From: a virus
Taxonomy: Duplodnaviria > Caudoviricetes
IMG/VR virus record: IMGVR_UViG_3300044535_000374
Span: 3,212 to 67,211 of that record
Length of the DNA: 64,000 bases
Direction: 5' to 3' (one strand)
Shown: positions 23,451 to 38,299 of the stretch, one piece after another
How positions within the stretch are numbered: position 1 is the stretch's first letter
Layout of the letters: each line of letters opens with the position of its first letter
Position numbers and translations under genes: made by a program
The notes under the pieces: generated by a model
Databases searched by the model: none
Seen by the model: only the letters and a program-made list of their open reading frames with translations
Told to the model about the DNA's origin: nothing

Positions 23451-23483
23451 CTAACCAAAAATCAATATGAAAACCAGAAAAAT

Positions 23484-23792: not shown

Positions 23793-23793
23793 G

Positions 23794-24121: not shown

Positions 24122-24182
24122 AACCTGTTTTTCGTTTACCAAATGTTATTTTCTGAGATGTTGTTCCTTTTACCTTTGCCAT
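24054..24182 (-). CDS. Small basic peptide ending YKGQGRG (42 aa, not in the ORF track)
   Basis: MAKVKGTTSQKITFGKRKTGYAKKTYNKHSPKPKDYKGQGRG; Y(R/K)GQG termini are common in small phage proteins. Confidence 0.6.
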   Translation of the reverse strand: MAKVKGTTSQKITFGKRKTGYAKKTYNKHSPKPKDYKGQGRG

Positions 24183-24184
24183 TT

Positions 24185-24547
24185 CTATTTATTCATAAAT
24201 TTTTTCATTTCAGCCATCTTTCTCTCACCTCTTCTTGGAGATATTTCCTTGTCTACCTCTTTATACTTTACACCAAGTAATGGCTTGAAGTTCTTTTTCA
24301 TTGAGTACTCTGGCCCATCTTCAGTTTCAATCTTAGTAAATGTTTTAACCTTTTGCTCACCATTCTTTTCTTTTGTTTTAGAATAGTAAGATGCATCTAA
24401 ATCTTCATCCTCTACAGCTTCTGTTAGTGTGCTAGTTGTTTTCTTGCCATCAACAGTTTTTTCATCCATCTCAGTTTTTGACTTACTCATTCCAGCAGAC
24501 TTCTTTGAATCTATTGCCTCTTTGATTTTTTTTAAATTTACTGCCAT
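24185..24547 (-). CDS. Hypothetical charged protein
   Basis: 120 aa ORF with an upstream promoter at 24576. Confidence 0.55.
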   Translation of the reverse strand: MAVNLKKIKEAIDSKKSAGMSKSKTEMDEKTVDGKKTTSTLTEAVEDEDLDASYYSKTKEKNGEQKVKTFTKIETEDGPEYSMKKNFKPLLGVKYKEVDKEISPRRGERKMAEMKKFMNK

Positions 24548-24575
24548 GCTAATACTTATTTATGATTGTATTATA

Positions 24576-24583
24576 CAAAAATA
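24576..24583 (-). promoter_or_regulatory. -7 promoter element TATTTTTG
   Basis: Intergenic, upstream of ATG 24547. Confidence 0.45.
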
Positions 24584-24589
24584 ATGAAT

Positions 24590-25048
24590 TTATAATAGCC
24601 TCAGTCTATTCCCATTAAAATAAACATTTGGGTTCACCCAAAACTCTATAGTAGAGCCTAGCTTACGTGCTAATATCTTCTCAGCTACCAGCTCTGTGAT
24701 TGCTGTTTTTATCGTAGACTCAGACTTGATTCCGCAGTGTTCCATTAAGTCAGGTGGGTTAAGTATAGTCACCTTAGCTAATGGCCTTATGTGACACATA
24801 GAGTAAAGTACAATCTTTAGAGATGCTGGGCTAAGGTTCATGAATGCCTTAAAGCTGTCTTGGAATAACTTAGTGTAAGTCATTGAGTCGTGTAGCTGCA
24901 TCTTATTCTTAGGTATCCTCCTGACTGCGTACAGGTCATCCCCATCTGTTAGTTGTAATATCTCCTCACTTTCTTTTGTTACGAAATGGCGTTCTTCTAG
25001 ACCTAGCACCTTAAATGGTGAGTCTAGGTAGGCTTCATGGTTTCTCAT
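24590..25048 (-). CDS. RepL-like winged-HTH protein
   Basis: YTKLF, HTH segment STIKTAITELV, C-terminal FWVNPNVYFNGNR typical of RepL-like proteins. Confidence 0.65.
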   Translation of the reverse strand: MRNHEAYLDSPFKVLGLEERHFVTKESEEILQLTDGDDLYAVRRIPKNKMQLHDSMTYTKLFQDSFKAFMNLSPASLKIVLYSMCHIRPLAKVTILNPPDLMEHCGIKSESTIKTAITELVAEKILARKLGSTIEFWVNPNVYFNGNRLRLL

Positions 25049-25050
25049 AC

Positions 25051-25509
25051 TTATATTTTAAAAAAATTAATATACTTCTTGTCTACGTAATAGAATAGTA
25101 AATCTTTTTGCTTTACCCTATCAAAGGTTCTCCTAAGCTCCCATTTGTCAAATGTTTCATTTCTTATTGATATGTAGTGTGTCTTATCTTTATTTAGTAT
25201 TATATGCACATCTGGTTTAACTATTTTTGATTGATAGCCAGGGTATGAGTTTACTATTACATCCTTATAAGGCCATGTTGTAGTAAATGGTGTATTTATA
25301 TTCTTTATTTCTAGTTTAATCTCTTCCCCATCCTTTCTTAAGAACATATCTCCTTGGTCTGCATATTCTGAAAATGCCCCCACATTATATGGAGCTATAA
25401 CTAGTTCAGGTATATCTACCTCATACCCTTTGCTTTTAAAAAAATCCCCCATAAAAACCACTGCTTCCTGAGACTTTAATAAAGCTTTTTTGAAATTATA
25501 TTCTTCCAT
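25051..25509 (-). CDS. Putative PD-(D/E)XK nuclease-fold protein
   Basis: Likely start MEEYNF at 25509; E...DQGD...LEIK motif; promoter TAGATTTG at 25533-25540. Confidence 0.5.
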   Translation of the reverse strand: MEEYNFKKALLKSQEAVVFMGDFFKSKGYEVDIPELVIAPYNVGAFSEYADQGDMFLRKDGEEIKLEIKNINTPFTTTWPYKDVIVNSYPGYQSKIVKPDVHIILNKDKTHYISIRNETFDKWELRRTFDRVKQKDLLFYYVDKKYINFFKI

Positions 25510-25563
25510 ATATTTGTGCTTAGATTGAGTAACAAATCTAGTTATTATACCCTCATAAAACAA

Positions 25564-26570
25564 ATTTTCCTTTTTATTTTTAAAAAAATTGAGAAACAGT
25601 TATTGATTGTCAAAGAGTTATGAGGTTTCCTTCTTATATATATTACATAGTATTTCTCATAGTATAGCAATAGCTTTACTTAAGTCCAGTTTAGTAAAGT
25701 AATAACTGGACATTCGTATATCAATTCGTATAATTACGAATATATACGTATCGTAGTATTACGATTTACACGTGCAAAAGTGCAGTGTTGGGCGGCCCGC
25801 CCTATTAGGGGGCGGCCGACCCTGGCCCAGCAACTTGCAGTTCTGCAGACTGGGTGGGTCAATCTATGCCTTTGCAATCTGCACACACATTTGCCCATTC
25901 TAGCCTATTAAGAATAACCCCATCAATCTGATAGCGTAGGGTTCCAGTATTAATGACAGGCCATGCCTAACCTGTGGGAAACTGCTTTGCCTGAGTGGGT
26001 AGGTCAATCCTAATGTAGGTTAGTAACCTAATTCATTATCAATCAATGTGTTATAGTGTTATCAGATGCCTATGTAAGCCTGTATGCGTAACATTACCCT
26101 TTCCCCATGTGTATCTGTGTGCTATGATTCTGTCATGCTTACCTATCTCCTGTGTATTTTGTCCCTGTGTAATAATCCGAAATGACCTTTGCCTGTCTTC
26201 CTGTGTCTCACCTGTATGTGACTAAGTTCTTAGTTATAACTATTCTCTCCTGTGTTTTCTCCTGTATGCATTGTGTCCTGTTTCTTTCTATTGTCTGTTA
26301 ACAATCACATACTATATATGTCCCTGATTTTGTCCTGTGTTTTTCTTCCGCAAATATTTCCGCAATCGTTTGCAATTATCCCTGTTTGCTGTCCTGATAA
26401 CTTTTTTTTAAATTTTTTTTCTGTTGCATCTGATTGATTCCCATTGTGTTATCTGTGTCTAAAAAAATATCCTGAAAATATTTGGGTGCAATTGATGTTT
26501 GTATACATACATATCATATCATTGTGGTGCCATAGTGCAACAAATCAATCAAAAACTAACAATCATTAGT
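25564..26570. other. Non-coding divergence region between late (-) and early (+) arms; candidate genome terminus or packaging region
   Basis: About 1 kb without a convincing ORF; contains palindromes, a GC-rich hairpin at 25790-25822 and a CCTGT array. Confidence 0.6.
26079..26396 (+). repeat. Array of CCTGT/CCTGA pentamers
   Basis: CCTGT at 26079, 26149, 26164, 26192, 26200, 26211, 26249, 26261, 26277, 26334, 26381; CCTGA at 26323 and 26393. Confidence 0.8.
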
Positions 26571-26978
26571 ATGAAAAACAAATCAAAATTAATCGCAGGT
26601 TTATCATTCACAAAGATATCAGGTAGTGTACCTGCATACGAAAGTGAGCAAACAGATTATTCTATTTGGCAACAGGCATCACATTCCACACATGGATACA
26701 CATTGTGGATGGTATCAGCTAATCAAGATGCTAGTGCAGAATTTTGGGGAACATTCAATGAATGTGTCAAGTATCTAGATAGCAAATTATCAGCAGATGC
26801 GCCTAGCTTTAATGTCAATGATTCTGTATCATTCACAGATGATTACACACATGAATTTGATGTATTCACTATCCAATCTATACAGGAGAATGGCACAATA
26901 AAATTGCAGGAGATTCTAGGTACATTTTTTCCTAAGCAATTCACATTAGTACACAATTTTATCAATCATAAATCTTAA
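26571..26978 (+). CDS. First early gene, hypothetical
   Basis: Likely start MKNKSK at 26571 after an A-rich leader. Confidence 0.6.
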   Translation: MKNKSKLIAGLSFTKISGSVPAYESEQTDYSIWQQASHSTHGYTLWMVSANQDASAEFWGTFNECVKYLDSKLSADAPSFNVNDSVSFTDDYTHEFDVFTIQSIQENGTIKLQEILGTFFPKQFTLVHNFINHKS

Positions 26979-26982
26979 TCAA

Positions 26983-27174
26983 ATGAGAAATTATTACACA
27001 ATCAACATGGTATTATCAGTTCTATTGTCAATCGTGACAATGTTTATTCCTGTATTAGGTTTCATGACAATGGAACCAACAGCTGTCAATCTAGCAATCA
27101 TATGCTTTGTGTTTACGACAGGTGCATTAGGAAGTTACATGTACTATGACAATGCTCAAAAATCAATCAAATAA
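26983..27174 (+). CDS. Small membrane protein (two TM helices)
   Basis: 63 aa with two hydrophobic stretches. Confidence 0.6.
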   Translation: MRNYYTINMVLSVLLSIVTMFIPVLGFMTMEPTAVNLAIICFVFTTGALGSYMYYDNAQKSIK

Positions 27175-27202
27175 TTTAACCAATAACCAAAAATTCACAG
27201 CC

Positions 27203-29359
27203 ATGAATCAAGTTAAAAAACAACCTAGAAAATTCTCTGTATTGACACCTGTAAATGAGAGAAGCAGAAACAAATTTTTATTACCATTGGATGCATTCTC
27301 TAACAAGTACATCCAAAAGTTTGTAGTCATGACATCAAGTTCAATGACAAGTGATGCAGTCTATGATTACGAGAGCGTTTACTCATCAGGAACGAATAGT
27401 GAAAGCAGATATGCTAACATGTTCAGACTAGCTAAAATGAACAGCGGAAGAATAATTGTGCCACAATTGTATTCAACACATTCAGGTGGAAGCAGAATAA
27501 GATTAAAGCTAAATGATACAGAAATTCATATCAGCAGTTCACTATTTGATTTGCTAGTAAATGAATTCGGTATGAAGTATTACATTGATGAAAACAGAGA
27601 GCATAACGGATACAAGATTAAAGTTATTGTTATCAGTGATGACATGATTGCACCTGATTTAACAGAGTCATTGGTGGAAGTGGGAAGACTTGTAAAGGTT
27701 ACAGATGACAGCCAAATTTGGGGAACAGATACATTGCTAGGTTATCATTATTCAGCATGGCATCCAAAGATTGCATCTAATTTCACAAAGTACATGGACA
27801 AGACTTTAGGTGCAGTTAACTTTGGATTTGAAGCAGAGAAGCAAGACTACACATTCAGGGACAGAGAGAATGCTATTAAATTAGCTTTTGAGACAGGATT
27901 TAAGAAAGAGAGAGATGGCAGTTTAGGTGATGGAGGATTTGAATTGATTTCACCTGTATTACCATTGAACAATGATGCAGTCATCAATGAAGTACTTGCA
28001 CCTGTTAGGGATATATTGGATGCGGAAACTAGCGACAGATGTGGTGGTCACATCAATGTATCAATCAATGGTGAAAATTCTAGAGACATCCTTAAGAAAG
28101 TGAAAGGAAGTTTACCAATATTCTATTCAATCTATGAGAAGCGTTTAAACAACAGCTATTGCCAAGCACAGCAGTTTGGCACATACCTTCGCTCACCTAG
28201 AAAGTACCAATCATTCTATGTGAAGAACAATGAGATTCTTGAATTCAGAATATTCCCTGCAATCAAGAGCAACACCATCCTTAAGAACAGAATTGATTTG
28301 ATGCGCATAGTATTGAATGACCTGTATGGTAAGACACATAACAAGGTTATCCTTGAGATGGCTAAAAAGAATTCTAAGTTATACAATTTCATGTTGAATG
28401 TAGTGTGCAATGGCGACATGGATAAGTTCAAAAACAAGTTCAAGACATTCATCACATTATCAGCTAAGTACAAATGTGGTATCGTTACAATTAACACGAT
28501 TAAGAAAGTTGAGCAGATGATGAGCATGAGTATCATTACTCCTACAGAAACTACACAGGAACCTACAGAGACTACACAAGCACCTAGAGAAAGAGTATTC
28601 CATGTAGACTTACCTGATACGACATCCACATGGGTAACAGATGCAGTGACTGAATTATCAAACGATGATTCATACAGACAGGAGCGTTCTAACGATGTGA
28701 GAGATGGCAGTATTGATGGTGTGAACGAGGATGTTATTGTTACATCATTCGCTCAGAATGTAGAAAGCTACAGAGGACTATCATCAAGCGCTAGAACAGA
28801 ATTGAATACAGCATTCCTTTCAGATGAAATTTATGTAAACAATATGAGAGCGACAAATGAACAGCTATGTCAATTCTTTGCGCCAAACAGCATGGTATCA
28901 TTAGGCACACCATGTGAATACAGCAGTAACTTTAGTATCATGGTGAAGAAAGCATTAAATACTATTGGTGGTGTGATTAGCTCTGTATTAAACTATGAGA
29001 CATTGCCTGTATCGGTTATTAATTCACAGACAGAAAGATTGTTTGATTCATGCAGAGACAATGATATGCAAGTATGTCAAACATATTCTCAGAGCGAGAT
29101 GTCATTTTTCAACAGAATATTTGCAATGCTAATTACCACATCTAGATTCACAGATACAACAAACATGTGTTTCAGGGCTGAATTTAAGCTATCTACTTTG
29201 TCATCTGAAAGGTACTACATGAACTTTATCAGACACGAGGATGGCACATATATATGCGCTCTAGCTAAGAGACTAGATGGTAATAGATTCGTGTATATAT
29301 TCAATGAACATGAATTGAGTCTAAACTTATTAACTGATTCATCTCAAAATCCTTTTTAA
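27203..29359 (+). CDS. Putative amidoligase (COOH-NH2 ligase, Amidoligase_2-like) with extra N- and C-terminal regions
   Basis: FGFEAEK, ERDGSL...GFELISP, CGGHINVS, LEFRIF motifs; likely start MNQVKK at 27203. Confidence 0.82.
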   Translation: MNQVKKQPRKFSVLTPVNERSRNKFLLPLDAFSNKYIQKFVVMTSSSMTSDAVYDYESVYSSGTNSESRYANMFRLAKMNSGRIIVPQLYSTHSGGSRIRLKLNDTEIHISSSLFDLLVNEFGMKYYIDENREHNGYKIKVIVISDDMIAPDLTESLVEVGRLVKVTDDSQIWGTDTLLGYHYSAWHPKIASNFTKYMDKTLGAVNFGFEAEKQDYTFRDRENAIKLAFETGFKKERDGSLGDGGFELISPVLPLNNDAVINEVLAPVRDILDAETSDRCGGHINVSINGENSRDILKKVKGSLPIFYSIYEKRLNNSYCQAQQFGTYLRSPRKYQSFYVKNNEILEFRIFPAIKSNTILKNRIDLMRIVLNDLYGKTHNKVILEMAKKNSKLYNFMLNVVCNGDMDKFKNKFKTFITLSAKYKCGIVTINTIKKVEQMMSMSIITPTETTQEPTETTQAPRERVFHVDLPDTTSTWVTDAVTELSNDDSYRQERSNDVRDGSIDGVNEDVIVTSFAQNVESYRGLSSSARTELNTAFLSDEIYVNNMRATNEQLCQFFAPNSMVSLGTPCEYSSNFSIMVKKALNTIGGVISSVLNYETLPVSVINSQTERLFDSCRDNDMQVCQTYSQSEMSFFNRIFAMLITTSRFTDTTNMCFRAEFKLSTLSSERYYMNFIRHEDGTYICALAKRLDGNRFVYIFNEHELSLNLLTDSSQNPF

Positions 29360-29370
29360 TTTTTCATGGC

Positions 29371-29418
29371 TGTAGGGGAAGCGACATATCTATTCCTAGA
29401 TTAATTTAATCCCCTACA
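29371..29418 (+). promoter_or_regulatory. Long-loop inverted repeat after the amidoligase gene (terminator or processing stem)
   Basis: TGTAGGGGA (29371-29379) / TCCCCTACA (29410-29418). Confidence 0.55.
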
Positions 29419-29421
29419 AAT

Positions 29422-29452
29422 TTTGTCAAACAAAATATTATAACTAACTTTG
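29422..29452 (+). promoter_or_regulatory. Full Bacteroidota promoter TTTG-N19-TAACTTTG
   Basis: -33 and -7 elements at canonical spacing, upstream of ATG 29476. Confidence 0.75.
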
Positions 29453-29475
29453 TAAACAATCAAATAATCAAAACT

Positions 29476-30483
29476 ATGTGTACATTCTTTGTAAAAAAAC
29501 CTAAGCAAGTCTTAAAGCAAGACCATTTCAACACCATCATAGAAAACAATCCTCAAGGATTCGGATTCGTATACACCACAGGTGACAGGCTAGTCATCGT
29601 TAAGTCAGCAAAGCCTGATGCAAAGCAATTATGGAATAAGTATCAGGATGCTGTTGCTAAATATCCTCAGTCACATTTCATCGGTCATGGCAGGATTGCC
29701 ACAGGCAGTAATGTAGACTATGAGAATACACACCCATTTCTTATCAACAAAGGTTTGGTATTCGTTCACAATGGTATCATCAGACAATTCCCATCAACAG
29801 CCAAGCGCAGTGACACATACCAATACATGGAGCAGGTATTACGCAAGTTACCTAGAGACTTTTACAAACAGAAGGCTATCATGGATTTGATAGGCAGAGA
29901 CATTGTAGGTAGCAAGTTTGCATTCCTGACTATTGATAATAAGGTATACATCGTAAACGAACATGCATGTGTTACAGATACAGAGACAGGCGTATTATTC
30001 AGCAACAGCAACTACAAGCCTAGCGAATGGTTAGATTATGGTGGTACTAAGATTCACAAGTACGATACCAAAAAGACTAACAAGTACAGCTATGATTGGG
30101 ACAAGGGAGCTACACAAAGCAAGTTAGACTTTCATATTGACAGAGACTCAGCAGAAATTAAACATCAGGCAGGTGACTACATCCATTGCCTAGATTGTGA
30201 TGATTGGGTATACAAGACATCATACGAGAAGAAGTTTGATTGTTGCACATCATGTGCTAAGGATTACGGATACCTTACATTGATGGGTACAGAGACAGGA
30301 CAATTTGAAAAAGAAGTTGAAGGATTGTACCATTGCGATGAATGTAATGTAAATGTGGCATCACACAGATACGATGGATTCCATCTATGTAGTGAATGCG
30401 AGAAGATGTACATAGGTGCTAAGCCTATATACTCAGAGATAGAGGAGTATAACAATTCATTTGATAACTATGAAAACATATAA
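29476..30483 (+). CDS. Class II glutamine amidotransferase with C-terminal Cys-rich (Zn-binding) repeats
   Basis: Cys2 nucleophile (MC), NPQGFG, HGRIAT, NTHPF, HNGII, SDT; four CxxC motifs in the tail. Confidence 0.88.
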   Translation: MCTFFVKKPKQVLKQDHFNTIIENNPQGFGFVYTTGDRLVIVKSAKPDAKQLWNKYQDAVAKYPQSHFIGHGRIATGSNVDYENTHPFLINKGLVFVHNGIIRQFPSTAKRSDTYQYMEQVLRKLPRDFYKQKAIMDLIGRDIVGSKFAFLTIDNKVYIVNEHACVTDTETGVLFSNSNYKPSEWLDYGGTKIHKYDTKKTNKYSYDWDKGATQSKLDFHIDRDSAEIKHQAGDYIHCLDCDDWVYKTSYEKKFDCCTSCAKDYGYLTLMGTETGQFEKEVEGLYHCDECNVNVASHRYDGFHLCSECEKMYIGAKPIYSEIEEYNNSFDNYENI

Positions 30484-30485
30484 AC

Positions 30486-30689
30486 ATGGAAAAATTTTTA
30501 ACAGAGCAACAGCAGAAAGTATTAACTATTGGTAAGTGGGACATAGCTCCCACACCAAAGTATCTTACACTATATCCTGAAGATTTTGTACAAGACATTG
30601 AGTCATGGAACCAAGTATGTGACCAATTGAATGTACCTTATGATTCACCTTATGTACATATTTTATTCATCGCAACAAAAACCAATTAA
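30486..30689 (+). CDS. Hypothetical early protein
   Basis: 67 aa, tightly packed with neighbours. Confidence 0.55.
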   Translation: MEKFLTEQQQKVLTIGKWDIAPTPKYLTLYPEDFVQDIESWNQVCDQLNVPYDSPYVHILFIATKTN

Positions 30690-30690
30690 C

Positions 30691-30906
30691 ATGGACAAAG
30701 TAAATTTAATTAAGATTGATACCAAAGAACATTTTGAAGTATCAATGGATGAGAACAAGTATTATGCTACACATGAATACAATAATCATGGACATGATAA
30801 GTGGTGGGTGTTTAGTGACATGGGAGTTCATGAGAATGATGTGGTGTATTTTTCTGTAGTGAATTTATGTAACAACAAGTATAAAAAAATAAATCATATC
30901 GTATGA
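30691..30906 (+). CDS. Hypothetical early protein
   Basis: Likely start MDKVNL at 30691. Confidence 0.55.
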   Translation: MDKVNLIKIDTKEHFEVSMDENKYYATHEYNNHGHDKWWVFSDMGVHENDVVYFSVVNLCNNKYKKINHIV

Positions 30907-31205
30907 GCATGAGCATGACAGGTCAGGAAGTCCTGATGAATATACTAACTAAGATTGTAGTAGATGTAGCTATACAGAATGATGATGACTACAATGATTT
31001 CATGGATGCTGTAATAACATCCATCCTGTATGTGGCTAAGACAGAACAACTATGGGATGATGCAGAGATACAGACAGCCATAACTATCATCAATCATCGT
31101 GCTAAAGAGTTAATCAATACAATTGATTTTGATGAGGATGAGCATAAGCCTAACATCCAAGCAATAAACGATATAATCAACAGAGCATTTGACAATTTAA
31201 ATTAA
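30903..31205 (+). CDS. Hypothetical acidic protein
   Basis: 100 aa, ATGA overlap with the previous gene. Confidence 0.55.
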   Translation: MSMSMTGQEVLMNILTKIVVDVAIQNDDDYNDFMDAVITSILYVAKTEQLWDDAEIQTAITIINHRAKELINTIDFDEDEHKPNIQAINDIINRAFDNLN

Positions 31206-31211
31206 AAAACA

Positions 31212-31409
31212 ATGAGCATATTAAAACAACAGGTATCAACATTCACAGATTTGACACCTAGAGAAAGACAGATATTTATTGCAGAATTATATCACAATGC
31301 GTGGTATTCAGAAGATAGATATAAACAACTAGAGGAGTTATATAACCTATGGGTGAGTGACCCTATCAAAGAAAAAGCATTCTTAAACGAAATAAACGAA
31401 ACATCATGA
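31212..31409 (+). CDS. Hypothetical protein
   Basis: 65 aa, A-rich leader. Confidence 0.55.
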   Translation: MSILKQQVSTFTDLTPRERQIFIAELYHNAWYSEDRYKQLEELYNLWVSDPIKEKAFLNEINETS

Positions 31410-31594
31410 AACAAGCGCATGTACAAATCACAATCACATGTCCCACATGCAGTGGTGATGGATTCTATTTAGACTATGCAGGAAGTGAGGAGCAAGGTTT
31501 GGATTATGAGAAAGCATACGAATGTAAAGATTGCAAAGGAACAGGATTAATTAATAACACAACATACAACAATGGAGAATTTGAAAGGCGTTGA
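31406..31594 (+). CDS. DnaJ-type CxxCxGxG zinc-finger protein
   Basis: CPTCSGDG and CKDCKGTG. Confidence 0.7.
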   Translation: MKQAHVQITITCPTCSGDGFYLDYAGSEEQGLDYEKAYECKDCKGTGLINNTTYNNGEFERR

Positions 31595-31862
31595 ACTAAT
31601 TGTCAGCATAGCATCACAGCTAACACTAGAAGCAGTTATGTCAAAAGACGAGCAGTTTAAAAAGGTAAGATGTTTACAAGCATCACATCTAATCAAAGGA
31701 TGTAGTGATTTATCAGGTAAGAGCGTAATTGATTTGCTAGTATTAAGCAAAGCAATGACACTATCTATGAACGATGGCTATAGACAATTTGAAAGAGAGA
31801 TGGAAGGTGAGGAAATTTTAAAAAACATATTTAAGGATGAAGAAAATAAAAAAGGTGATTGA
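31572..31862 (+). CDS. Hypothetical protein
   Basis: 96 aa ORF. Confidence 0.5.
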   Translation: MENLKGVELIVSIASQLTLEAVMSKDEQFKKVRCLQASHLIKGCSDLSGKSVIDLLVLSKAMTLSMNDGYRQFEREMEGEEILKNIFKDEENKKGD

Positions 31863-31989
31863 GGTTACAATAGCATTGGGTATTGGTGCGTTTCTATGGG
31901 ACAAAGACATAAGCGCATCTGATAATATATGGATGATGATACCCATGTATTTCATATTCGGATTGATGTACTATTTCTTAAAACAATAA
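31837..31989 (+). CDS. Small membrane protein (50 aa, not in the ORF track)
   Basis: MKKIKKVIEVTIALGIGAFLW...MMIPMYFIFGLMYYFLKQ; two hydrophobic stretches; fills a gap. Confidence 0.5.
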   Translation: MKKIKKVIEVTIALGIGAFLWDKDISASDNIWMMIPMYFIFGLMYYFLKQ

Positions 31990-32016
31990 TTTTCATTAAC
32001 CAAAAAATAAAAACAA

Positions 32017-32310
32017 ATGAAAAATCTGAGAACAAAAAATGGTTTACAAGTTAACCAAATCGGAGAGACAAAAGACCTAATTTTAGGTTTAGTAGCAGGA
32101 CAAAAATCATTCCTAGCATGGAATAAGTCTGATGGCAAACAGCACCACAACAAGCATAGGAGCAAGTTTGACCTGATGTTTGAGGAACCTGTGAGCAATG
32201 AAAGGTTTGTGGTGGTTAAAAAATGGGGTAACAGGCTATCAGCTAATATCCTAGAAAGAGAGCCAAAGAAAACCAAGTCTGTAGTTAAATGTATCAAAAT
32301 TACAATCTAA
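32017..32310 (+). CDS. Hypothetical protein
   Basis: 97 aa, AACCAAAA leader. Confidence 0.55.
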   Translation: MKNLRTKNGLQVNQIGETKDLILGLVAGQKSFLAWNKSDGKQHHNKHRSKFDLMFEEPVSNERFVVVKKWGNRLSANILEREPKKTKSVVKCIKITI

Positions 32311-32717
32311 TGTCAGACAAAATCCAAAGGCTAATTGATGAGCTAAAGCAAGAATGCCTAAAGGATAATAAAAGATGTGTTGTCATCCTCAAGAAAATTG
32401 GGGATGATGACATTCATCAAAAAATTATTCACTATGTTGTCAATCGTATTACTCAAATTTATAATGTATCTGTGGAAGAAATCATTTCATGGAGAAAATC
32501 ATCAGATGCTAAGCAAGCAAAAAAGATGATAGTTTTTATCCTTATAAATAGGTACGCCATAAAAGTTTCCCATTTGGCTAACTATTTAGGAGTGAGCTGT
32601 CAATCAATTAGTTACATGGCATCTAACCCTAATTCAGTGTATGCGATTAATAATTATAAATTATTTGTGTCTAAAATAGAAGATGAATTAAGCAATGCAT
32701 TAGATTTGCAATCTTAA
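32310..32717 (+). CDS. DnaA C-terminal (domain IV)-like HTH protein
   Basis: YNVSVEEIIS.RK....QAKKMIVFIL...LANYLG....SISY pattern. Confidence 0.55.
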   Translation: MSDKIQRLIDELKQECLKDNKRCVVILKKIGDDDIHQKIIHYVVNRITQIYNVSVEEIISWRKSSDAKQAKKMIVFILINRYAIKVSHLANYLGVSCQSISYMASNPNSVYAINNYKLFVSKIEDELSNALDLQS

Positions 32718-32833
32718 TTTTTTGATATGAATATAGACATGAACGACATTGAGCAGGTAAAAAAGGCATTGGCAATCCTAGAAGCACAAAGAGAGATTCT
32801 AATTAAACAACTAAGGAAACTAATTTATCAATC

Positions 32834-33187
32834 ATGAAATCATTTACCGAAAGAGAGGTATTGCTACAGGTAAAACGAGTATACTCAAAGGATGAGGTCA
32901 TTGCAGAGTTACATAGGCAGATAAAGGATTATGGTTTTCAGGTAGGCATTCTAGAATCAGAGATAGCAGAACTAAAGGATGAGAACGAAAAACTTCGTAA
33001 ACTAGGCACCTTAAACAGACAGGAGGAGTACACTAAAAATATTCTAAATCAGTTAAAAGGGGAAAGAGAAAGGAAGAATAAGTTCAAAAGAAATTCCGAA
33101 CTATGGATGACAAAGTACCATCAATTGCTTAATTTTCAAACCACATCACCACATCTACAACCATTGGACATAGATGATGATGAATAA
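32834..33187 (+). CDS. Coiled-coil hypothetical protein
   Basis: 117 aa, heptad-rich. Confidence 0.55.
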   Translation: MKSFTEREVLLQVKRVYSKDEVIAELHRQIKDYGFQVGILESEIAELKDENEKLRKLGTLNRQEEYTKNILNQLKGERERKNKFKRNSELWMTKYHQLLNFQTTSPHLQPLDIDDDE

Positions 33188-33198
33188 AAAAACAAACA

Positions 33199-33819
33199 AT
33201 GGTTTTAAATTCAAACATACCAAGTTTTAAAGGTGTAGTAAGGAAATCTTACTTTACGAAAGAAGATGCGGACATGAACGAGTATTACAATGTGTATGTA
33301 TTTGGCATCCAATCATGTGGAGGTAAGATACTTACATTCCATGTGTTAACTGATTCAGGCATGTTAAGGAGTAGAGTTCCAATATCAGAGATATACACTA
33401 GAGTTCCCACAAACGACATCCCATTCAACTACAAACAGCTATGGGATTGCTTTAGCGAGAATGTATCTGTTATTGAGTATGATTTCTTAGCTTATCACAG
33501 GTGTCAAGTAGTTTTAAGGGATGGCAGTAAGGTATGGGCTACATACATATTGACTATTGATTGGTATAACAATCCTTACAGCGATGAACCTTCTGACTAC
33601 AAATGCGGTCACTTACTTGAGTCTGATGATGGGTATCTCATGTGCATGCCTAACAACAGAATATTTTGGAAGGATAGCAATTGGGTTACAAAGCAGTTAC
33701 CTGAAGATTTAAAACAATTTAAGGTTGACACTAACCTAGATTCCGTTGAGAATCAATCAGATAAATGGATAGTAGAGGATACGAATTCCTTTTACTACGA
33801 TATAATAGAAAACAAATAA
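33199..33819 (+). CDS. Conserved phage protein of unknown function
   Basis: LNSNIP, QLWDCFS, YILTIDW, PNNRI motifs resembling a widespread aquatic phage family. Confidence 0.6.
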   Translation: MVLNSNIPSFKGVVRKSYFTKEDADMNEYYNVYVFGIQSCGGKILTFHVLTDSGMLRSRVPISEIYTRVPTNDIPFNYKQLWDCFSENVSVIEYDFLAYHRCQVVLRDGSKVWATYILTIDWYNNPYSDEPSDYKCGHLLESDDGYLMCMPNNRIFWKDSNWVTKQLPEDLKQFKVDTNLDSVENQSDKWIVEDTNSFYYDIIENK

Positions 33820-33822
33820 CCT

Positions 33823-34023
33823 ATGACACCAAAAGAAAAAGCAAAAGAATTATTTGATAAATATTTTGAGGTAACAAATAATTATTATCAAGCTAAAGAA
33901 TGTGCATTAATAGCAGTAGATGAAATATTAGATTTAAAGCATATAGTAACATTAAGAAGGAATATGCACGAAATGGAATTAGAATATTGGATGGAAGTTA
34001 AACAAGAAATAGAAAACCTATAA
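33823..34023 (+). CDS. Small MTPKEKAKEL-type hypothetical protein
   Basis: MTPKEKAKEL...AKECALIAVDEI...YW.EVKQEIE.L. Confidence 0.65.
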   Translation: MTPKEKAKELFDKYFEVTNNYYQAKECALIAVDEILDLKHIVTLRRNMHEMELEYWMEVKQEIENL

Positions 34024-34039
34024 CCAAAACAAATAACCT

Positions 34040-34267
34040 ATGGATTGCGAAAATGGATGGAAAGGAAATTGCTGTTGTAATTGCACAAGACAAATACCAT
34101 TATTTAAACACCCAATGAATAAAGGAGAAGGTAAAGGAAGTATTTCAGAAAGTATGGGGTTTGCTTGTACTGCATTTTGGGATATGGATAAGACAGAAGG
34201 AATGATATTTTTTGATAACCCACATGGAATATGCGAAATGCATAATAGAAAAAACCAAAATAAATAA
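34040..34267 (+). CDS. Small Cys-rich hypothetical protein
   Basis: CCCNC, HP.N, HGICE. Confidence 0.6.
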   Translation: MDCENGWKGNCCCNCTRQIPLFKHPMNKGEGKGSISESMGFACTAFWDMDKTEGMIFFDNPHGICEMHNRKNQNK

Positions 34268-34270
34268 CAT

Positions 34271-34600
34271 ATGGAAAAGTCGTACTATGCTATTATACCT
34301 GCATCTGTCAGGTATGATAAGAAGCTAACGCCCAATTCTAAGCTATTGTATGGGGAAATCACAGCCCTATGCAATGAGAAAGGCTATTGTTGGGCAAATA
34401 ACACATACTTTAGCACATTATACAAGGTATCTAACAGAACCATCACAAATTGGATTAACGAACTAAAAGGAGCAGGTCATATCATTGTAAACTATGAGAG
34501 GGCAGATGTAGAAGGATACTCAAAAAGGTATATTATGTTGGCTGATACAAGCATCCATGCTAAGCCAATGGGTAGGAAAAAATCTTCTAGTACCCCCTGA
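34271..34600 (+). CDS. HTH replication initiator / replisome organizer (N-terminal domain only)
   Basis: YYAIIPA.VRYD..L....KLLYGEITAL....GYCWA.N.YF..LY....TI..W HTH_36-type motif; followed by iterons. Confidence 0.8.
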   Translation: MEKSYYAIIPASVRYDKKLTPNSKLLYGEITALCNEKGYCWANNTYFSTLYKVSNRTITNWINELKGAGHIIVNYERADVEGYSKRYIMLADTSIHAKPMGRKKSSSTP

Positions 34601-34731
34601 AAATAATTTCTATACCCCCATGAAGAAATTTTCTATACCCCCCTGAAAAAAACTTCATACCCCCATGAAAAAATTTTCTACCATAATAATACAATGAATA
34701 ATACAAGGAATAATACATTAATAATAATACA
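34585..34731 (+). repeat. Putative replication origin: about 23 bp iterons plus AT-rich AATAATACA repeats
   Basis: TTCTATACCCCC(A/C)TGAA-like units at 34585, 34608, 34631, 34654 and a partial one at 34676; four AATAATACA copies at 34685-34731. Confidence 0.75.
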
Positions 34732-34740
34732 TACTATACT

Positions 34741-36543
34741 ATGAGTAATACTATAACAGAGAACAATATTTTAGAGAGTTTAATAAGCATTTATCCTAGT
34801 ATGTTGAAGACTAATGATGTGAAATATATATCAGTAGCCAATGCCTTGACATGGATTAAGATAGGTAGATGGGCTGATAAGGTTTCTCAGGTTAAGAATG
34901 GTGTACTCAATAAGAAAGAACTTCCTGCAATTATATGGGGAGGTCAGTTCAAGGCAGGAGATAGAACTAACGAAGGTATCAGTCACTACTCAGGGTTAGC
35001 TCCATTAGACTTTGACATGAAGGATTCTACAGATGAAGAGATACAGGATAAGATAGATATGCTAAAGGCAGACCCATTTATCTTAGCTATCTGGCGTTCA
35101 TCTTCTGGGAAAGGTATCCATTGCTTAATGAGAATACAATCACAGGAGGATTACTCAGCACATTACAGAGCTATTATCAGTAAGTATGATGGCATTGACC
35201 CTGCATGTAGTAACATATCTAGATTATTATTTGTGAGCCATGACCCTGATATCCATGTGAATGAGGAGAGCTTAATATTCACAGATATAATCAGAGAGGA
35301 GAGATTGATATTACCATCAGAGCCAACACTAGCTACTAAAACAGACTTTAGAAAGCTAGAGATGGTATGTAATCTATTCCTGAATGCTAAGGAAGGAGAG
35401 CGAAATCATAAGATGTTGAAGGCAGGAAGGTTACTTGGTGGATTCATAGCAGGTGGTTTAGTTCAGGAGGATATAGGCGTACAAGCCCTTTTAGGCGCAT
35501 TAGAGACACGCAGGCAGGAATTAGGTGAAGATGACTACAGAGCCGCTAAAATCACTTTAAATAACGGATTAGAGCATGGCTTACTATCTCCTTTGGTAGA
35601 GATACAAGATGAGTTTATAAAGATGTCCCTTCAAGAGTCTATGAGAGAGGAGGATTTATATAAGTTCATACAGACAGAACAGGAAGGCTTAGACTTTCTT
35701 CTAAAGTACAAGAGAGGTGAGTTTGATAAAGGATTAGATTGTGGTTATCAAGAGTTAGACCCACACTTTAAGTTTATAAAGAAGGCGTTGACGGTAGTTT
35801 TAGGTCATGGGCATAGCGGTAAGACTTCTTTTGCGTTATGGTTTTTGAACTTGGCCGCTAGACTACACAATTGGAAATGGGCTGTTTATTGTGGTGAGAA
35901 TTCTGTTGAGAGCGTTAGATTGATTCTTAATCAATACTATCTAGGAAAGAGAATTGAAGATAGTAAAGAGGAGGAGATTATAAAATCTAATAAGTGGGTA
36001 AGTAATAGATTCATCATCCTAAAGAATGAGGATTTACTTGAGCCGTATCAAGTGCTTGATTTAATTGATAAGGTTAGACAGGTGCATTCAATTGATGGTG
36101 CATTGATTGACCCATTCAATTATCTTAAGCTAGCAGGTAAGGAAAGATATAACGCTGTGATTGATGCGTATACTCAGTTCAGGAACTACTCATTGAAGAC
36201 AGGTATAAACCTTTGGTTAACAGCACATACGAATACCGAGTCTCAGAGAGAGGACAGGATGCCTACACCTGCACATGCAGAGATGGGTTCAATGCTATAC
36301 AACAAGGCAGACCAATTCATATGCGTACACAGACACAGCTATGATGATGTGGATGGAGGTATAAAGAATAATGGATGTTCTGTTTATGTAGCTAAGACTG
36401 ATAGAGACCAATTGTATGGATTAGTAAAAGGTAAATACAAAGAGCCTATTGAGTTCAGATACACACGTGTTGGATTCATTGACCAATATGGACTATTCCC
36501 ATTAGCATCGCATAACAATATACAATCTGAAATAAATTTCTAG
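34741..36543 (+). CDS. Primase-helicase fusion (VirE_N/BT4734-like primase domain plus DnaB/SF4 helicase)
   Basis: SGLAPLDFD, SSSGKGIH, RLLFVSHD; GERN (PriCT-like); Walker A GHGHSGKT; ALIDPFN. Confidence 0.82.
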   Translation: MSNTITENNILESLISIYPSMLKTNDVKYISVANALTWIKIGRWADKVSQVKNGVLNKKELPAIIWGGQFKAGDRTNEGISHYSGLAPLDFDMKDSTDEEIQDKIDMLKADPFILAIWRSSSGKGIHCLMRIQSQEDYSAHYRAIISKYDGIDPACSNISRLLFVSHDPDIHVNEESLIFTDIIREERLILPSEPTLATKTDFRKLEMVCNLFLNAKEGERNHKMLKAGRLLGGFIAGGLVQEDIGVQALLGALETRRQELGEDDYRAAKITLNNGLEHGLLSPLVEIQDEFIKMSLQESMREEDLYKFIQTEQEGLDFLLKYKRGEFDKGLDCGYQELDPHFKFIKKALTVVLGHGHSGKTSFALWFLNLAARLHNWKWAVYCGENSVESVRLILNQYYLGKRIEDSKEEEIIKSNKWVSNRFIILKNEDLLEPYQVLDLIDKVRQVHSIDGALIDPFNYLKLAGKERYNAVIDAYTQFRNYSLKTGINLWLTAHTNTESQREDRMPTPAHAEMGSMLYNKADQFICVHRHSYDDVDGGIKNNGCSVYVAKTDRDQLYGLVKGKYKEPIEFRYTRVGFIDQYGLFPLASHNNIQSEINF

Positions 36544-36549
36544 ATATAT

Positions 36550-36580
36550 TTTGTTTGTATACAACATTTACTTAATTTTG
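36550..36580 (+). promoter_or_regulatory. Full promoter TTTG-N19-TAATTTTG
   Basis: -33/-7 elements upstream of ATG 36592. Confidence 0.7.
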
Positions 36581-36591
36581 AAAAAAAAGCG

Positions 36592-37185
36592 ATGATTAGT
36601 GAAAATGAGTACTTAGAAGAAGTTACTAAGCTGTACAAAAAAACACTAGAAGACAGGTTAATTAGCAGGTTTAAAAAAGAGTTCCATGAAAAGATAGGAT
36701 ACACGCCCCATGTTATTACTCTGTATGATGACAGGAGTTATTTGCCTAGAATAAAATTATATGAATTGGTAAATGTAATCAATGATATAATGGAGCGTGA
36801 GTTTGGTAATAGAAAAATAAACAGGAAGCTAATTAGAATAACATCTATATTAAGAAGTAGAGATGCTACTGAGTATAGATTTATCTACTTTAAAATAGGT
36901 AGATTAATGGGCTATAACCTTAAGGAAATAGGTTCAGAGTTGCAATCAAAATTCTATAAAGGATATGACCATACAACTGTTATTCATGGGATAAAAACTT
37001 TTGATGACCTATTGTCAACTAGTCAATCATTTGCACTTAGGTATCAGCACGTAATTGATAACATTAGAAAAATATACGAAAAAGAAAATGAAAATGATGG
37101 AAGTAAAGGGATTGGAGAACAGTATACCTGTGAGGAAAATATACTTGGACACGAAGCAGGAAGTGAGCTACAAGTCAATATGTGA
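36592..37185 (+). CDS. DnaA C-terminal (domain IV)-like DNA-binding protein
   Basis: LKEIG......DHTTVIHG matches the DnaA signature helix. Confidence 0.72.
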   Translation: MISENEYLEEVTKLYKKTLEDRLISRFKKEFHEKIGYTPHVITLYDDRSYLPRIKLYELVNVINDIMEREFGNRKINRKLIRITSILRSRDATEYRFIYFKIGRLMGYNLKEIGSELQSKFYKGYDHTTVIHGIKTFDDLLSTSQSFALRYQHVIDNIRKIYEKENENDGSKGIGEQYTCEENILGHEAGSELQVNM

Positions 37186-37300
37186 TGCTAGTAGAAGAAC
37201 AGGCATAAACCATGAGACTATTAAGAATTCATTAAACCCAATAAAACGAAAGAGGTTCATTGAAGAAAACAGAGAGTTCATATTCAGAATAATAAAATAA
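37055..37300 (+). CDS. NUMOD1-like HTH protein
   Basis: YKSICDASRRTGIN...I; true start probably near 37090. Confidence 0.55.
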   Translation: MITLEKYTKKKMKMMEVKGLENSIPVRKIYLDTKQEVSYKSICDASRRTGINHETIKNSLNPIKRKRFIEENREFIFRIIK

Positions 37301-37561
37301 ACACAAATGAAAAACCTATTAAACACAAAGAAAGTAGCCATTGACATCGTAAAAGGATTTGGATTCCATGTAGTATATTGGGATTCTTGGCATATTATGA
37401 TTGGGTGTTTTGTATTCACAATTGAAATCTAAGACTATGAAACATCTTATAAAGAAAGCAGGACAACTATCATTTTTCCTTCTAGTATCTGTGCCATTGG
37501 CTTGTACCTTGTATTTGACAGCACATGTTATCTTTGAAGTTAAACGGATAATCAAGTCTAT

Positions 37562-37837
37562 ATGAAAATAAATTCAAAATATTTTTGGCTAATTATATGC
37601 ATTGTGTTTTTGATAAGCTGTTACTCAGAAATGACTAGCAAAAAGCTAGAAGCTAAAATAGCTGAGCTAGAGGCTGAAAATAACAGGCTTATATCTGTAA
37701 ACGATTCACTATTCAATGAGAATTTTGTTAACAGACAGATAATTAGCAGATATGAGATTGGCATTGACATGTACAAGGAACAGCACCCAAGAGAGGCTCT
37801 TGAAATATTAGAAATCATTTTAAATAAAACAGAATAA
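37562..37837 (+). CDS. Membrane-anchored coiled-coil protein
   Basis: N-terminal hydrophobic helix followed by a coiled coil. Confidence 0.5.
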   Translation: MKINSKYFWLIICIVFLISCYSEMTSKKLEAKIAELEAENNRLISVNDSLFNENFVNRQIISRYEIGIDMYKEQHPREALEILEIILNKTE

Positions 37838-37933
37838 TTATGGAATGGCTTAAGTATCTACAAATAACACTAGCAGTAATATGTTGGATTTTTATGGGAA
37901 TCTATGTTTATCTAAGAGTAAAAGAAATTCGCA

Positions 37934-38248
37934 ATGAACGTAAATAAAATAGGAGCAGAAATAGCGTCTCTAATGAGACTGATGAAAGCATCAGCTTTAT
38001 ATGCAGAAAGCGTAAGGCAGTATCCGATATCTACAGAGTACAAGAATATATGTTACTCAATTATAAAGGATTATAACAAGTTATCTAACGCAATTAGGTT
38101 TATGAATCCTGGGGCTAAGGCGTTAATAGAGTCAGATATGGAAGATGATAGAGTTCATTACATATCGGAGGTGGTTTTATTGATGAGTCTAGTCACAGAA
38201 GAAGATTGTAAGGATATATTAGAATCTTTGAAAAAATACATAGATTAA
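37934..38248 (+). CDS. Hypothetical protein
   Basis: 104 aa ORF. Confidence 0.55.
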   Translation: MNVNKIGAEIASLMRLMKASALYAESVRQYPISTEYKNICYSIIKDYNKLSNAIRFMNPGAKALIESDMEDDRVHYISEVVLLMSLVTEEDCKDILESLKKYID

Positions 38249-38280
38249 TTTGGATGTTTACAATCAAGTAACTATATTTG
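38249..38280 (+). promoter_or_regulatory. Full promoter TTTG-N20-TATATTTG
   Basis: -33/-7 elements upstream of ATG 38300. Confidence 0.7.
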
Positions 38281-38299
38281 TATACCTAAACCAAAAGCT

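What the first reader, a model, noticed from the sequence alone, without database searches (positions are those of the whole stretch)
25948..35090. 9 kb early region with no CCAG/CTGG
Seen by manual scan: no CCAG or CTGG between 25944 and 35091, against roughly 27 expected from base composition. Only a handful occur from 35.1 to 41.8 kb, while the late arms contain many. Early genes use GCA-GGT and CCT-G in place of GCT-GGT and CCA-G. Known: T7 and T5 deplete restriction sites in their first-entering DNA. Inference: this end enters first and avoids a host defence recognising a CCAG-containing asymmetric motif until an early product neutralises it, so an unknown anti-defence gene may lie here.
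Basis: partly seen in the sequence, partly recalled or inferred. Interest (0 to 1): 0.7.

Follow-up and report, generated by a model that had tools for sequence, protein, structure and literature searches.

The report
Phage early region purged of CCAG
The first 9 kb of early DNA of an uncultured 67-kb freshwater phage has been cleared by selection of the four-letter word CCAG/CTGG, most likely because this stretch is exposed to a host restriction enzyme before the phage can disarm it; this rule is already known from T5- and T7-like phages and is seen here in a very clean form.

Summary
No CCAG or CTGG lies between window 25944 and 35091, and only 6 lie in the whole plus-strand early/replication block (25945-41818). 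Synonymous codon shuffles give 38, and late-gene codon usage gives 51. The late genes match their own null exactly (276 vs 275). Both orientations, all three reading frames and the non-coding leader are purged, through context-specific synonymous choices. Selection therefore acts on double-stranded DNA.

Depletion fades with distance from the divergent early/late junction: observed/expected 0, 0.28, 0.59, then about 1. GATC, TCGA, GGWCC and CGTCC are absent genome-wide.

In relatives, G004 has no CCAG in 47.5 kb. G006 and G012 show the same local CCAG depletion at the same promoter-proximal place. G012 also shows local GATC depletion there; G007 does only in a test with post hoc limits.

Best reading (about 0.6): this is leading-region avoidance of a CCAG-specific host restriction system, with staged DNA exposure and an unidentified early countermeasure, as shown experimentally for T5/BF23 and T7-like murciaviruses. 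Genome ends, entry order, host and anti-restriction gene all remain inferred.

It is a new member of a known kind. This scan has noted similar site-free early islands in other phage genomes (e.g. e1-6100757).

The parts
25945..35090 (.). Stretch with no CCAG or CTGG: the non-coding leader plus the promoter-proximal early genes ('E1')
   Evidence: Coding part: 0 observed vs 17.1 +/- 3.1 in within-gene synonymous shuffles (minimum 11 of 200). Sense CCAG 0 vs 9.8 and sense CTGG 0 vs 8.3.
25945..26570 (+). Non-coding leader ahead of the first early gene. It carries a plus-strand CCTGT array and an element shared with the start of the G002 contig. It is also free of CCAG/CTGG.
   Evidence: Sequence read, repeats. 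0 sites vs 2.3-3.3 expected. The homologous 1.7-kb leader of G006 holds 0 vs 8.6-9.1. The shared box TTTGCCTGA(G/C)TGGGTAGGTCA is. The two 'ORFs' listed here (26046-26225 and 26252-26437) look spurious.
26571..26978 (+). First early gene, 135 aa, an orphan. It is a positional candidate for an early countermeasure, with no functional evidence.
   Evidence: No PHROG or Pfam match. Only 4 clusters of close relatives (64-99% identity) among 5.8 billion proteins. AlphaFold2 mean pLDDT 63.6, and no PDB fold match at E <= 0.001.
27146..30483 (+). Two large early enzymes: a 737-aa amidoligase-like protein and a 335-aa class-II glutamine-amidotransferase-like protein with a zinc finger. They are candidates for modifying a host or phage target.
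   Evidence: Amidoligase_2 is only a weak lead: 14.8 bits, below the cut-off, and atlas neighbours carry PF12224 in 12-15% of members. GATase_4 scores 22.7 bits against a cut-off of 23; PHROG hits are. Orthologues exist in G002 at 42% and 57% identity.
34576..34740 (.). Iteron array (23 bp x 4.5) plus an AT-rich stretch, between the replication-initiator gene and the primase-helicase gene: a probable replication origin. The site-free stretch ends 350 bp downstream of it.
   Evidence: Flanking genes: HTH_36/replication initiator at 34271-34600 and primase-helicase at 34741-36543.
34741..41818 (+). Replication and recombination genes ('E2'): primase-helicase, Erf, PD-(D/E)XK exonuclease, SSB-like protein and RusA. 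Strongly but not fully depleted.
   Evidence: 6 sites vs 21.0 +/- 3.8. All six are CCAGR. CCAGY is 0 vs 10.0. Annotation.
41820..46353 (-). Convergent minus-strand genes next to the block, including the endolysin. Mild depletion; this is the tail of the gradient.
   Evidence: 14 observed (10 sense CCAG plus 4 sense CTGG) vs 23.8 summed null means. Outside CCWGG: 13 vs 22.0, with a minimum of 14 in 200 shuffles. Endolysin at 42289-42888.
25684..25712 (.). Inverted repeat GTCCAGTT...AACTGGAC just outside the boundary. It is conserved in G006, where it holds the last CCAG before that genome's gap.
   Evidence: (I1, I13): G000 w25684-25712 aligns with G006 37290-37318. The last G006 sites are at 37292 and 37319.
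5091..25898 (-). Late arm (terminase, portal, virion proteins) with CCAG/CTGG at the expected level
   Evidence: 139 observed vs 124.8. Annotation.
46357..63976 (-). Late arm (tail fibres and other virion genes) with CCAG/CTGG at the expected level
   Evidence: 48 vs 49.6 and 75 vs 76.7. Annotation.

Best explanation
The block is the leading region of a virulent Flavobacteriia-type podophage. This DNA has to be read in the cell while the host's restriction enzymes are still active.

A host restriction-modification system that recognises the asymmetric word CCAG (most strictly CCAGY) cuts any incoming genome that carries the word in DNA exposed at that time. Selection has therefore removed every copy from the first 9.1 kb by synonymous changes: CCA-G to CCT-G, NCT-GG to NCA-GG, and NNC-CAG/NNC-TGG to NNT or NNA.

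The more than 300 copies in the late arms are harmless. Either they become accessible only later (stepwise or transcription-coupled DNA entry from an end near window 25.9 kb), or by then an early product has neutralised the enzyme. Selection therefore weakens with distance from that end.

Shown: the purge, its DNA-level nature, its polarity, its recurrence in relatives, and the absence of a phage methyltransferase. Inferred: the host enzyme, the order of entry, the fixed genome end and the countermeasure.
For: (1) Size and specificity. 0 vs 17.1 in E1, 6 vs 21.0 in E2, 273 vs 272.3 in late genes. CCAG is the only 4-mer whose gap beats all 30 codon-shuffled genomes.

(2) Action on DNA. Sense CCAG and sense CTGG are both absent (0 vs 9.8 and 0 vs 8.3). 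All three frames are affected. Codon choice is context-specific. The non-coding leaders are purged too (G006: 0 vs about 9). The escape products CCTG/CAGG are enriched (120 vs 75.8, z +8).

(3) Gradient from the divergent junction. Observed/expected is 0/18.1, 6/21.6, 14/23.8, 48/49.6 and 75/76.7, and 139/124.8 on the far arm.

(4) The genome is under heavy restriction pressure in general. GATC is 0 vs 129 and TCGA 0 vs 71 (early plus late). CGTCC is 0 vs 21.6 and GGACC 0 vs 13.7 in late genes.

(5) CCAG is a real target in this phage family. G004 holds 0 vs 243 over 47.5 kb. 2 of 80 terminase-family loci hold 0 vs 85 and 0 vs 67.

(6) Same polarity in relatives. In an 8-kb scan blind to location, 4 of 15 family genomes beat all 25 shuffled genomes, and each time the window lies at the promoter-proximal end of the early block: G000 CCAG, G006 CCAG (3 vs 48.8), G012 CCAG and GATC, G008 GCAG.

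(7) In-situ purge. The colinear orthologous block of G002 (42-67% identity, like the late genes) still carries 12 sites in its E1.

(8) No DNA methyltransferase (PF01555, PF00145, PF02086) in G000 or in 5 relatives.

(9) Experimental precedent. R-M sites matter only in the first-injected DNA of T5-like phages (PMC10644984 section 10) and of T7-like murciaviruses (PMC12455610 sections 18-19). A CCAG-specific methyltransferase exists (PMC10689673, passages).
Against: The genome ends are unknown. G000, G006 and G007 close on themselves by 127-, 37- and 141-nt overlaps typical of assemblers, which fits headful packaging as well as terminal repeats. With headful packaging no fixed leading region would exist.

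All 20 sequencing runs found are kept as contigs, so no molecule ends could be read.

No early protein resembles a known anti-restriction protein (fold).

If a countermeasure exists it is not general, because GATC and TCGA are avoided genome-wide.

G002, the only close relative (66-67% primase identity) with a full early block on hand, shows only a weak effect: 12 vs 22.2.

The support from relatives depends on the test. With limits set after seeing the gaps, hits fall in 4 of 8 early chunks vs 0 of 44 others. With a fixed a-priori 7-kb chunk the result is 2 of 9 vs 1 of 38. In the strict single-gap test only 2 of 15 genomes pass.

The host is unknown, and no CCAG enzyme is known to me from Bacteroidota.
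Confidence: 0.6

Rival explanations
1. Mosaic origin. The early block was imported by recombination from a lineage that avoids CCAG over its whole genome (like G004). Its lack of sites would then be inherited history and not selection on a leading region.
For: Whole-genome avoiders exist in the family (G004; L068 and L094). Early regions of these phages are highly variable: few G000 early genes have homologues in G006. Lake variants swap the cassette at 32842-34269.
Against: The block is colinear and orthologous with that of G002, at divergence like that of the late genes, yet G002 keeps its sites. The depletion is graded and runs across the operon border into convergent late genes. The non-coding leader is purged too. 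The same local depletion sits at the same place in G006 and G012. The block does not share G004's other avoided words (CATG occurs 91 times in the block).
Confidence: 0.1
2. The phage's own nuclease. An early phage enzyme cuts host DNA at CCAG to shut the host down, as Davison proposed for T5 A1. The DNA present in the cell at that time must therefore lack the word.
For: The idea has been put forward for T5 (bioRxiv 10.1101/866236, passages). It predicts the same local purge, and it would also explain a whole-genome purge in a relative that lacks an inhibitor.
Against: No nuclease of unknown specificity was found in the early block. The only nucleases are a RecE-like PD-(D/E)XK exonuclease and RusA. 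Progeny DNA with more than 300 sites would need a second protective function. G004 lacks seven different 4-mers, which looks like pressure from many host enzymes. This rival also needs staged exposure of late DNA.
Confidence: 0.1
3. An effect at the RNA or translation level. Early transcripts would avoid a motif cut by a host ribonuclease or disfavoured as a codon pair.
For: The depleted block largely coincides with the plus-strand early transcription unit.
Against: Both CCAG and its complement are removed from the sense strand. All three frames are affected. Non-coding leaders are purged. Depletion continues into genes transcribed from the other strand.
Confidence: 0.03
4. Chance or composition. 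Early proteins simply use fewer Ala, Gly and Pro residues and different codons.
For: Early proteins do have less Ala and Gly (4.5% and 4.8% vs 7.8% and 7.9%). This explains much of the raw contrast with the arms (106 expected from the flank rate vs 38-51 from the codon nulls).
Against: 6 observed vs a minimum of 24 in 300 shuffles. 0 vs a minimum of 11 in 200 for E1. Gap score 55.3 vs a null maximum of 22.1.
Confidence: 0.01

Closest known systems
First-step-transfer (pre-early) DNA of T5, BF23 and other Tequintavirus phages
   Same: A terminal segment of about 8-10 kb holds the first-expressed genes. Restriction sites count there and nowhere else, and the protecting early function is still unidentified (PMC10644984 section 10; bioRxiv 10.1101/866236 passages). 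The size here (9.1 kb) and the unknown countermeasure are alike.
   Different: T5 is a siphovirus with about 10-kb terminal repeats, a defined injection stop and a two-step transfer shown by experiment. Here there is no homology, the ends and entry mode are unknown, the depletion fades gradually with no step, and some sites (GATC, TCGA) are avoided genome-wide, unlike the broad insensitivity of T5.
Leading region of T7-like murciaviruses versus the Mme2I Type I system (Martinez-Cazorla et al. 2025, PMC12455610)
   Same: Only recognition motifs in the first-injected early region decide sensitivity, and motifs elsewhere are tolerated. The authors propose an early inhibitor acting before full entry, and say headful packagers should not show the effect (sections 18-19 read). 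A gradual, transcription-coupled entry would fit the gradient seen here.
   Different: That case involves one to two copies of a 13-bp bipartite Type I motif, shown by escape mutants. Here a 4-bp asymmetric word with dozens of expected copies was removed, the evidence comes from sequence alone, and the phage family is unrelated and uncultured.
Genome-wide restriction-site avoidance in phages
   Same: The same selective agent and the same synonymous-change signature. This genome shows it for GATC, TCGA, GGWCC and CGTCC, and G004 shows it for CCAG and six palindromes.
   Different: For CCAG in this genome the avoidance is confined to about 14-24% of the genome, and the rest sits exactly at expectation (273 vs 272).
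Strand-bias evasion of Type III enzymes (T7 and EcoP15I; recalled, also mentioned in PMC10644984 section 10)
   Same: An asymmetric short word and a possible Type III-like enzyme.
   Different: Tested and not met. Late genes carry both orientations (109 CCAG and 167 CTGG on the coding strand).
Leading region of conjugative plasmids, depleted in restriction targets and rich in anti-defence genes (as cited in the discussion of PMC12455610; the original papers were not read)
   Same: The same logic: first-entering DNA is purged of targets and carries early countermeasures.
   Different: A different kind of element and a different entry mechanism (single-stranded transfer).

Membership tests
Leading-region (first-injected DNA) restriction-site avoidance, T5/T7 type | A recognition word is absent from one contiguous segment holding the first-expressed genes, but present at normal density elsewhere | tested here: met
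   0 vs 17.1 (E1), 6 vs 21.0 (E2) and 273 vs 272.3 (late). Gap score 55.3 vs a null maximum of 22.1.
Leading-region (first-injected DNA) restriction-site avoidance, T5/T7 type | The depletion acts on duplex DNA: both orientations, all frames, and non-coding DNA included | tested here: met
Leading-region (first-injected DNA) restriction-site avoidance, T5/T7 type | Fixed, non-permuted genome ends, with the segment at the entering end | tested here: inconclusive
   The contig closes on itself by a 127-nt overlap. The runs hold contigs only, and no starts or ends were reported (table 6). 1 of 3 related linear contigs (G002) begins about 40 bp from the homologous boundary; G001 and G004 begin inside genes.
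Leading-region (first-injected DNA) restriction-site avoidance, T5/T7 type | Stepwise or transcription-coupled DNA entry | not testable with these tools
   Needs infection experiments. Only the graded depletion hints at it.
Leading-region (first-injected DNA) restriction-site avoidance, T5/T7 type | An early product protects later DNA from the same enzyme | tested here: inconclusive
   No early ORF searched (about 30, those of roughly 60 aa or more) matches an anti-restriction family. The first gene product gave no fold match. No methyltransferase was found.
Leading-region (first-injected DNA) restriction-site avoidance, T5/T7 type | The host carries a restriction system for the avoided word | not testable with these tools
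   The host is unknown (lake-water metagenomes). Only indirect support: CCAG is absent from all of G004, and a CCAG methyltransferase is documented in H. pylori A45 (PMC10689673).
Type III strand-bias evasion | All copies of the asymmetric word lie in one orientation | tested here: not met
   Late coding strand: 109 CCAG and 167 CTGG. Window plus strand: 192 and 138.
Genome-wide restriction-site avoidance | The word is depleted over the whole genome | tested here: not met
   Not met for CCAG (late 273 vs 272). Met for GATC, TCGA, CGTCC and GGACC.

The most novel reading that the evidence does not exclude
A whole, so far unstudied family of freshwater and marine Bacteroidota podophages (at least 596 terminase relatives in IMG/VR) may deliver its genome in stages from a fixed end at the divergent early/late junction. 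It would then carry unknown, lineage-specific anti-restriction functions in a hypervariable leading region. If so, the purge boundary would mark the physical genome end. The decay of depletion would record how long the countermeasure takes to act. The purged word (CCAG, strictest for CCAGY, here and in G006 and G012; GATC in G012 and perhaps G007; GCAG in G008) would reveal the specificity of each host's dominant restriction system from phage sequence alone.
Probability: 0.45. Interest if true: 0.6.

Novelty: new member of a known kind. Interest (0 to 1): 0.45.

Why it matters
It gives a clean, statistically strong, sequence-only example of sub-genomic selection by restriction systems, in an uncultured phage family far from the T5 and T7 models.

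It yields concrete predictions: a genome end near window 25.9 kb, entry in the direction 26 to 42 kb, and a host enzyme specific for CCAG(Y).

It marks about 8 kb of orphan early genes as a place to look for new anti-restriction proteins.

It also shows that surveys of restriction-site avoidance which average over whole genomes would miss this. CCAG is close to its expected count over the genome as a whole (it is not among the most depleted 4-mers) but absent where it matters.

Tried and rejected
Closest DNA relatives: megablast of 3.9 kb of the block against 50,697 phage records found nothing.

Relatives at 75-86% primase identity were seen in the protein search, but their contigs could not be fetched.

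Genome ends:
- The end overlaps are assembler-like.
- The 20 runs found are all lake-water or metagenome contig sets. Laying four of them showed variants 1-5% apart and many contig breaks, but no molecule starts or ends. This says nothing for or against fixed ends.
- A literature search for termini of the named relatives led nowhere.

GCWGC looked locally absent in the gap scan, but its codon-null expectation in E1 is only 3.8, so I rejected it as evidence.

ACGT and CGTC/GACG are absent from E1 of G000 (0 vs 11.7 and 1 vs 17.2). They are also partly depleted in late genes, and they show the opposite pattern in G006. I left them unexplained; CpG effects that the null does not model are a possible cause.

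The local GATC depletion in G007 (1 vs 17.5) rests on limits chosen after seeing the gap. It is the top word of that genome in the blind 8-kb scan, but it does not beat the shuffled genomes (11.4 vs a null maximum of 16.3).

The a-priori 7-kb chunk test was weak: 2 of 9 vs 1 of 38.

The 'small plus-strand ORFs' I first noted at window <5000, and their 'conservation' in relatives, were artefacts. They lie antisense to a giant minus-strand ORF that my linear ORF caller had dropped.

Rfam found nothing in the window or in the relatives' leaders.

The fold of the first early protein had low confidence and gave no match.

The supplements of PMC10689673, which may say what type of system the CCAG methyltransferase belongs to, were not opened.

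Full report
WHAT THE DNA IS. The window is bases 3212-67211 of a 67,211-bp viral contig that closes on itself by a 127-nt overlap. It occurs in lake-water metagenomes of several years.

The minus-strand arms encode the large terminase, portal, virion proteins, tail fibres and an endolysin. The plus-strand block 26.0-41.8 kb holds:
- small orphan genes;
- an amidoligase-like and a glutamine-amidotransferase-like enzyme;
- a replication initiator, an iteron origin and a primase-helicase;
- Erf, a PD-(D/E)XK exonuclease, an SSB-like protein and RusA.

The nearest named phages are podophages of Cellulophaga, Flavobacterium and Maribacter, at 28-33% terminase identity. Early and late units diverge at about 25.9 kb and converge at 41.8 kb.

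THE OBSERVATION. It holds exactly as written. There is no CCAG or CTGG from 25945 to 35090, and there are six from there to 41818. The arms carry about 6.7 per kb. Expected counts for the block are 59 (Markov), 106 (flank rate), 38.4 +/- 5.0 (synonymous shuffles within each gene; minimum 24 of 300) and 50.9 (late codon usage). Late genes give 276 against 275. In a test blind to word and place, the CCAG gap scores 55.3, against at most 22.1 for any 4-mer in 30 codon-shuffled genomes.

WHAT KIND OF SELECTION. Both orientations vanish from the sense strand (0 vs 9.8 and 0 vs 8.3 in the first 9 kb), and all three frames are affected.

Codon choice depends on context:
- CCA is avoided only before G (2 CCA vs 26 CCT; elsewhere 48 vs 41).
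- NCT is avoided only before GG (3 NCT vs 33 NCA).
- C-ending codons are avoided before CAG (0 of 60) but not before CAA (20 of 105).

The products of these swaps, CCTG/CAGG, are the most enriched words. The non-coding leaders are free of sites as well (G000 0 vs about 3; G006 0 vs about 9). The constraint is therefore on duplex DNA and not on RNA or protein.

POLARITY. The left edge is sharp: six sites lie within 260 bp to the left of 25945. To the right, observed/expected rises through 0/18.1, 6/21.6, 14/23.8, 48/49.6 and 75/76.7. It crosses the operon border into genes read from the other strand. The six residual sites are all CCAGR. CCAGY stays at 0 vs 10.0 through 41.8 kb.

CONTEXT IN THE SAME GENOME. 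GATC, TCGA, CGTCC/GGACG and GGACC/GGTCC are absent from the whole genome, so the phage is plainly shaped by restriction. No DNA methyltransferase of three Pfam families is encoded.

RELATIVES. I fetched 15 related IMG/VR records.
- G004 (terminase about 31-34% identical by tblastn or alignment) has no CCAG/CTGG in 47.5 kb (243 expected). It also lacks GATC, CATG, AGCT, CTAG, GGCC and CGCG.
- 2 of 80 terminase-family loci likewise have none.
- G001 and G002 (primase 66-67% identical) avoid CCWGG genome-wide. G002 shows only a weak early CCAG deficit (12 vs 22.2).
- G006 (terminase 54% identical) has a 5.2-kb CCAG gap that starts at the same conserved hairpin beside its early leader. Its early genes hold 5 vs 20.7, and it passes the strict gap test (30.3 vs 26.6).

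In an 8-kb scan blind to location, 4 of 15 genomes exceed all 25 shuffled genomes: G000 (CCAG), G006 (CCAG), G012 (CCAG and GATC) and G008 (GCAG). In all four the window is the promoter-proximal part of the early block.

Weaker results are these. G007's GATC (1 vs 17.5 with post hoc limits) does not pass that scan. A fixed a-priori chunk test gives 2 of 9 vs 1 of 38. The 4 of 8 vs 0 of 44 result used limits partly set after seeing the gaps.

INTERPRETATION. More than 300 tolerated sites sit next to a 9-kb stretch where not one is tolerated. This means the late DNA is not at risk when the early DNA is. The published cases with this signature are T5-like phages and T7-like murciaviruses. In T5-like phages, Type I and II systems act only on sites in the first-step-transfer DNA (PMC10644984 section 10; Davison's account in bioRxiv 10.1101/866236). 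In murciaviruses, only Type I motifs in the first-injected region matter (PMC12455610 sections 18-19). Both are explained by staged entry plus an early inhibitor.

I therefore read the block as a leading region facing a CCAG-specific host system. A methyltransferase of that specificity has been shown in H. pylori A45, and the motif has been seen in T. phaeum (PMC10689673, passages).

The in-situ nature of the purge argues against simple import of the block. The arguments are the orthologous block with sites in G002, the gradient, and the same place in other lineages.

What is missing is any direct evidence for fixed ends, entry order, the host or the countermeasure. The genome-wide avoidance of GATC and TCGA shows that any countermeasure is selective.

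NOVELTY. The kind is known, and in 2025 it was demonstrated experimentally. This scan has also reported site-free early islands in other phage genomes (e.g. e1-6100757).

What is new here:
- a very clean case for an asymmetric 4-bp word;
- a measurable gradient;
- recurrence at the same genomic landmark in an unstudied Bacteroidota-phage family;
- a set of orphan early genes as candidates for new anti-restriction functions.

Noticed in passing
window 1-5055 (minus strand), continuing left of the window and across the contig junction: A giant open frame of 8,469 nt (about 2,820 codons, stop to stop) crosses the contig junction. It has no PHROG or Pfam match in either half, and only weak similarity to 'structural proteins' of Tenacibaculum and spring-water phages. 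It may be an ejected internal virion protein. The small plus-strand ORFs listed here are antisense artefacts.
   Followed up: partly
window 34576-34740: A 23-bp iteron array (4.5 copies) plus AT-rich repeats, between the replication-initiator and primase-helicase genes: a probable origin of replication.
   Followed up: partly
window 32842-34269: A cassette of four small genes (including the 206-aa phrog_3704 protein) is skipped in one lake variant and replaced by 369 other letters in another. The part 33340-34006 has much higher contig depth in one run (65 vs about 3), as if it were shared with other phages.
   Followed up: no
window 26079-26396: A plus-strand array of CCTGT pentamers in the non-coding leader. 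Similar CCTGT-rich leaders precede the first early gene in G002 (L011 1-1000), and a short one does in G004 (L014 350-380). Function unknown.
   Followed up: partly
window 25770-25900: A GC-rich element with the direct repeat GGGCGGCC(C/G)(G/A)CCCT, in an otherwise AT-rich intergenic region just outside the site-free stretch. No Rfam match.
   Followed up: partly
L011 977-1000; G006 38420-38443 (L100 18420-18443); L014 about 375-402: A conserved box CTGA(C/T)GAG...CGAAA lies directly upstream of the first early gene in three relatives. It recalls (from memory) the hammerhead ribozyme core, but Rfam gave no match at gathering score, and no such box is evident in the leader of this window as read (no pattern search was run).
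   Followed up: partly
G004 (L014-L016), whole 47.5-kb record: This relative has no copy of seven 4-mers: CCAG/CTGG, GATC, CATG, AGCT, CTAG, GGCC and CGCG (38-243 of each expected). ACAGC occurs once against 54 expected.
   Followed up: partly
window 26046-34700 and G006 39027-47800: ACAGT/ACTGT is absent from the promoter-proximal early genes of both G000 (0 vs 8.5) and G006 (0 vs 6.2), and only mildly low in late genes. It may be a second locally avoided word.
   Followed up: partly
G001 and G002, whole records: CCWGG is absent genome-wide in both (0 vs 56 and 0 vs 48). G001 also lacks CACTG/CAGTG (0 vs 50).
   Followed up: no
G020 (L137) 29385-32642: The last 3.3 kb of this record lacks AAGA, ATGA and CATA, which are common elsewhere in it (gap scores 30-50). 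This compositional island was not examined.
   Followed up: no
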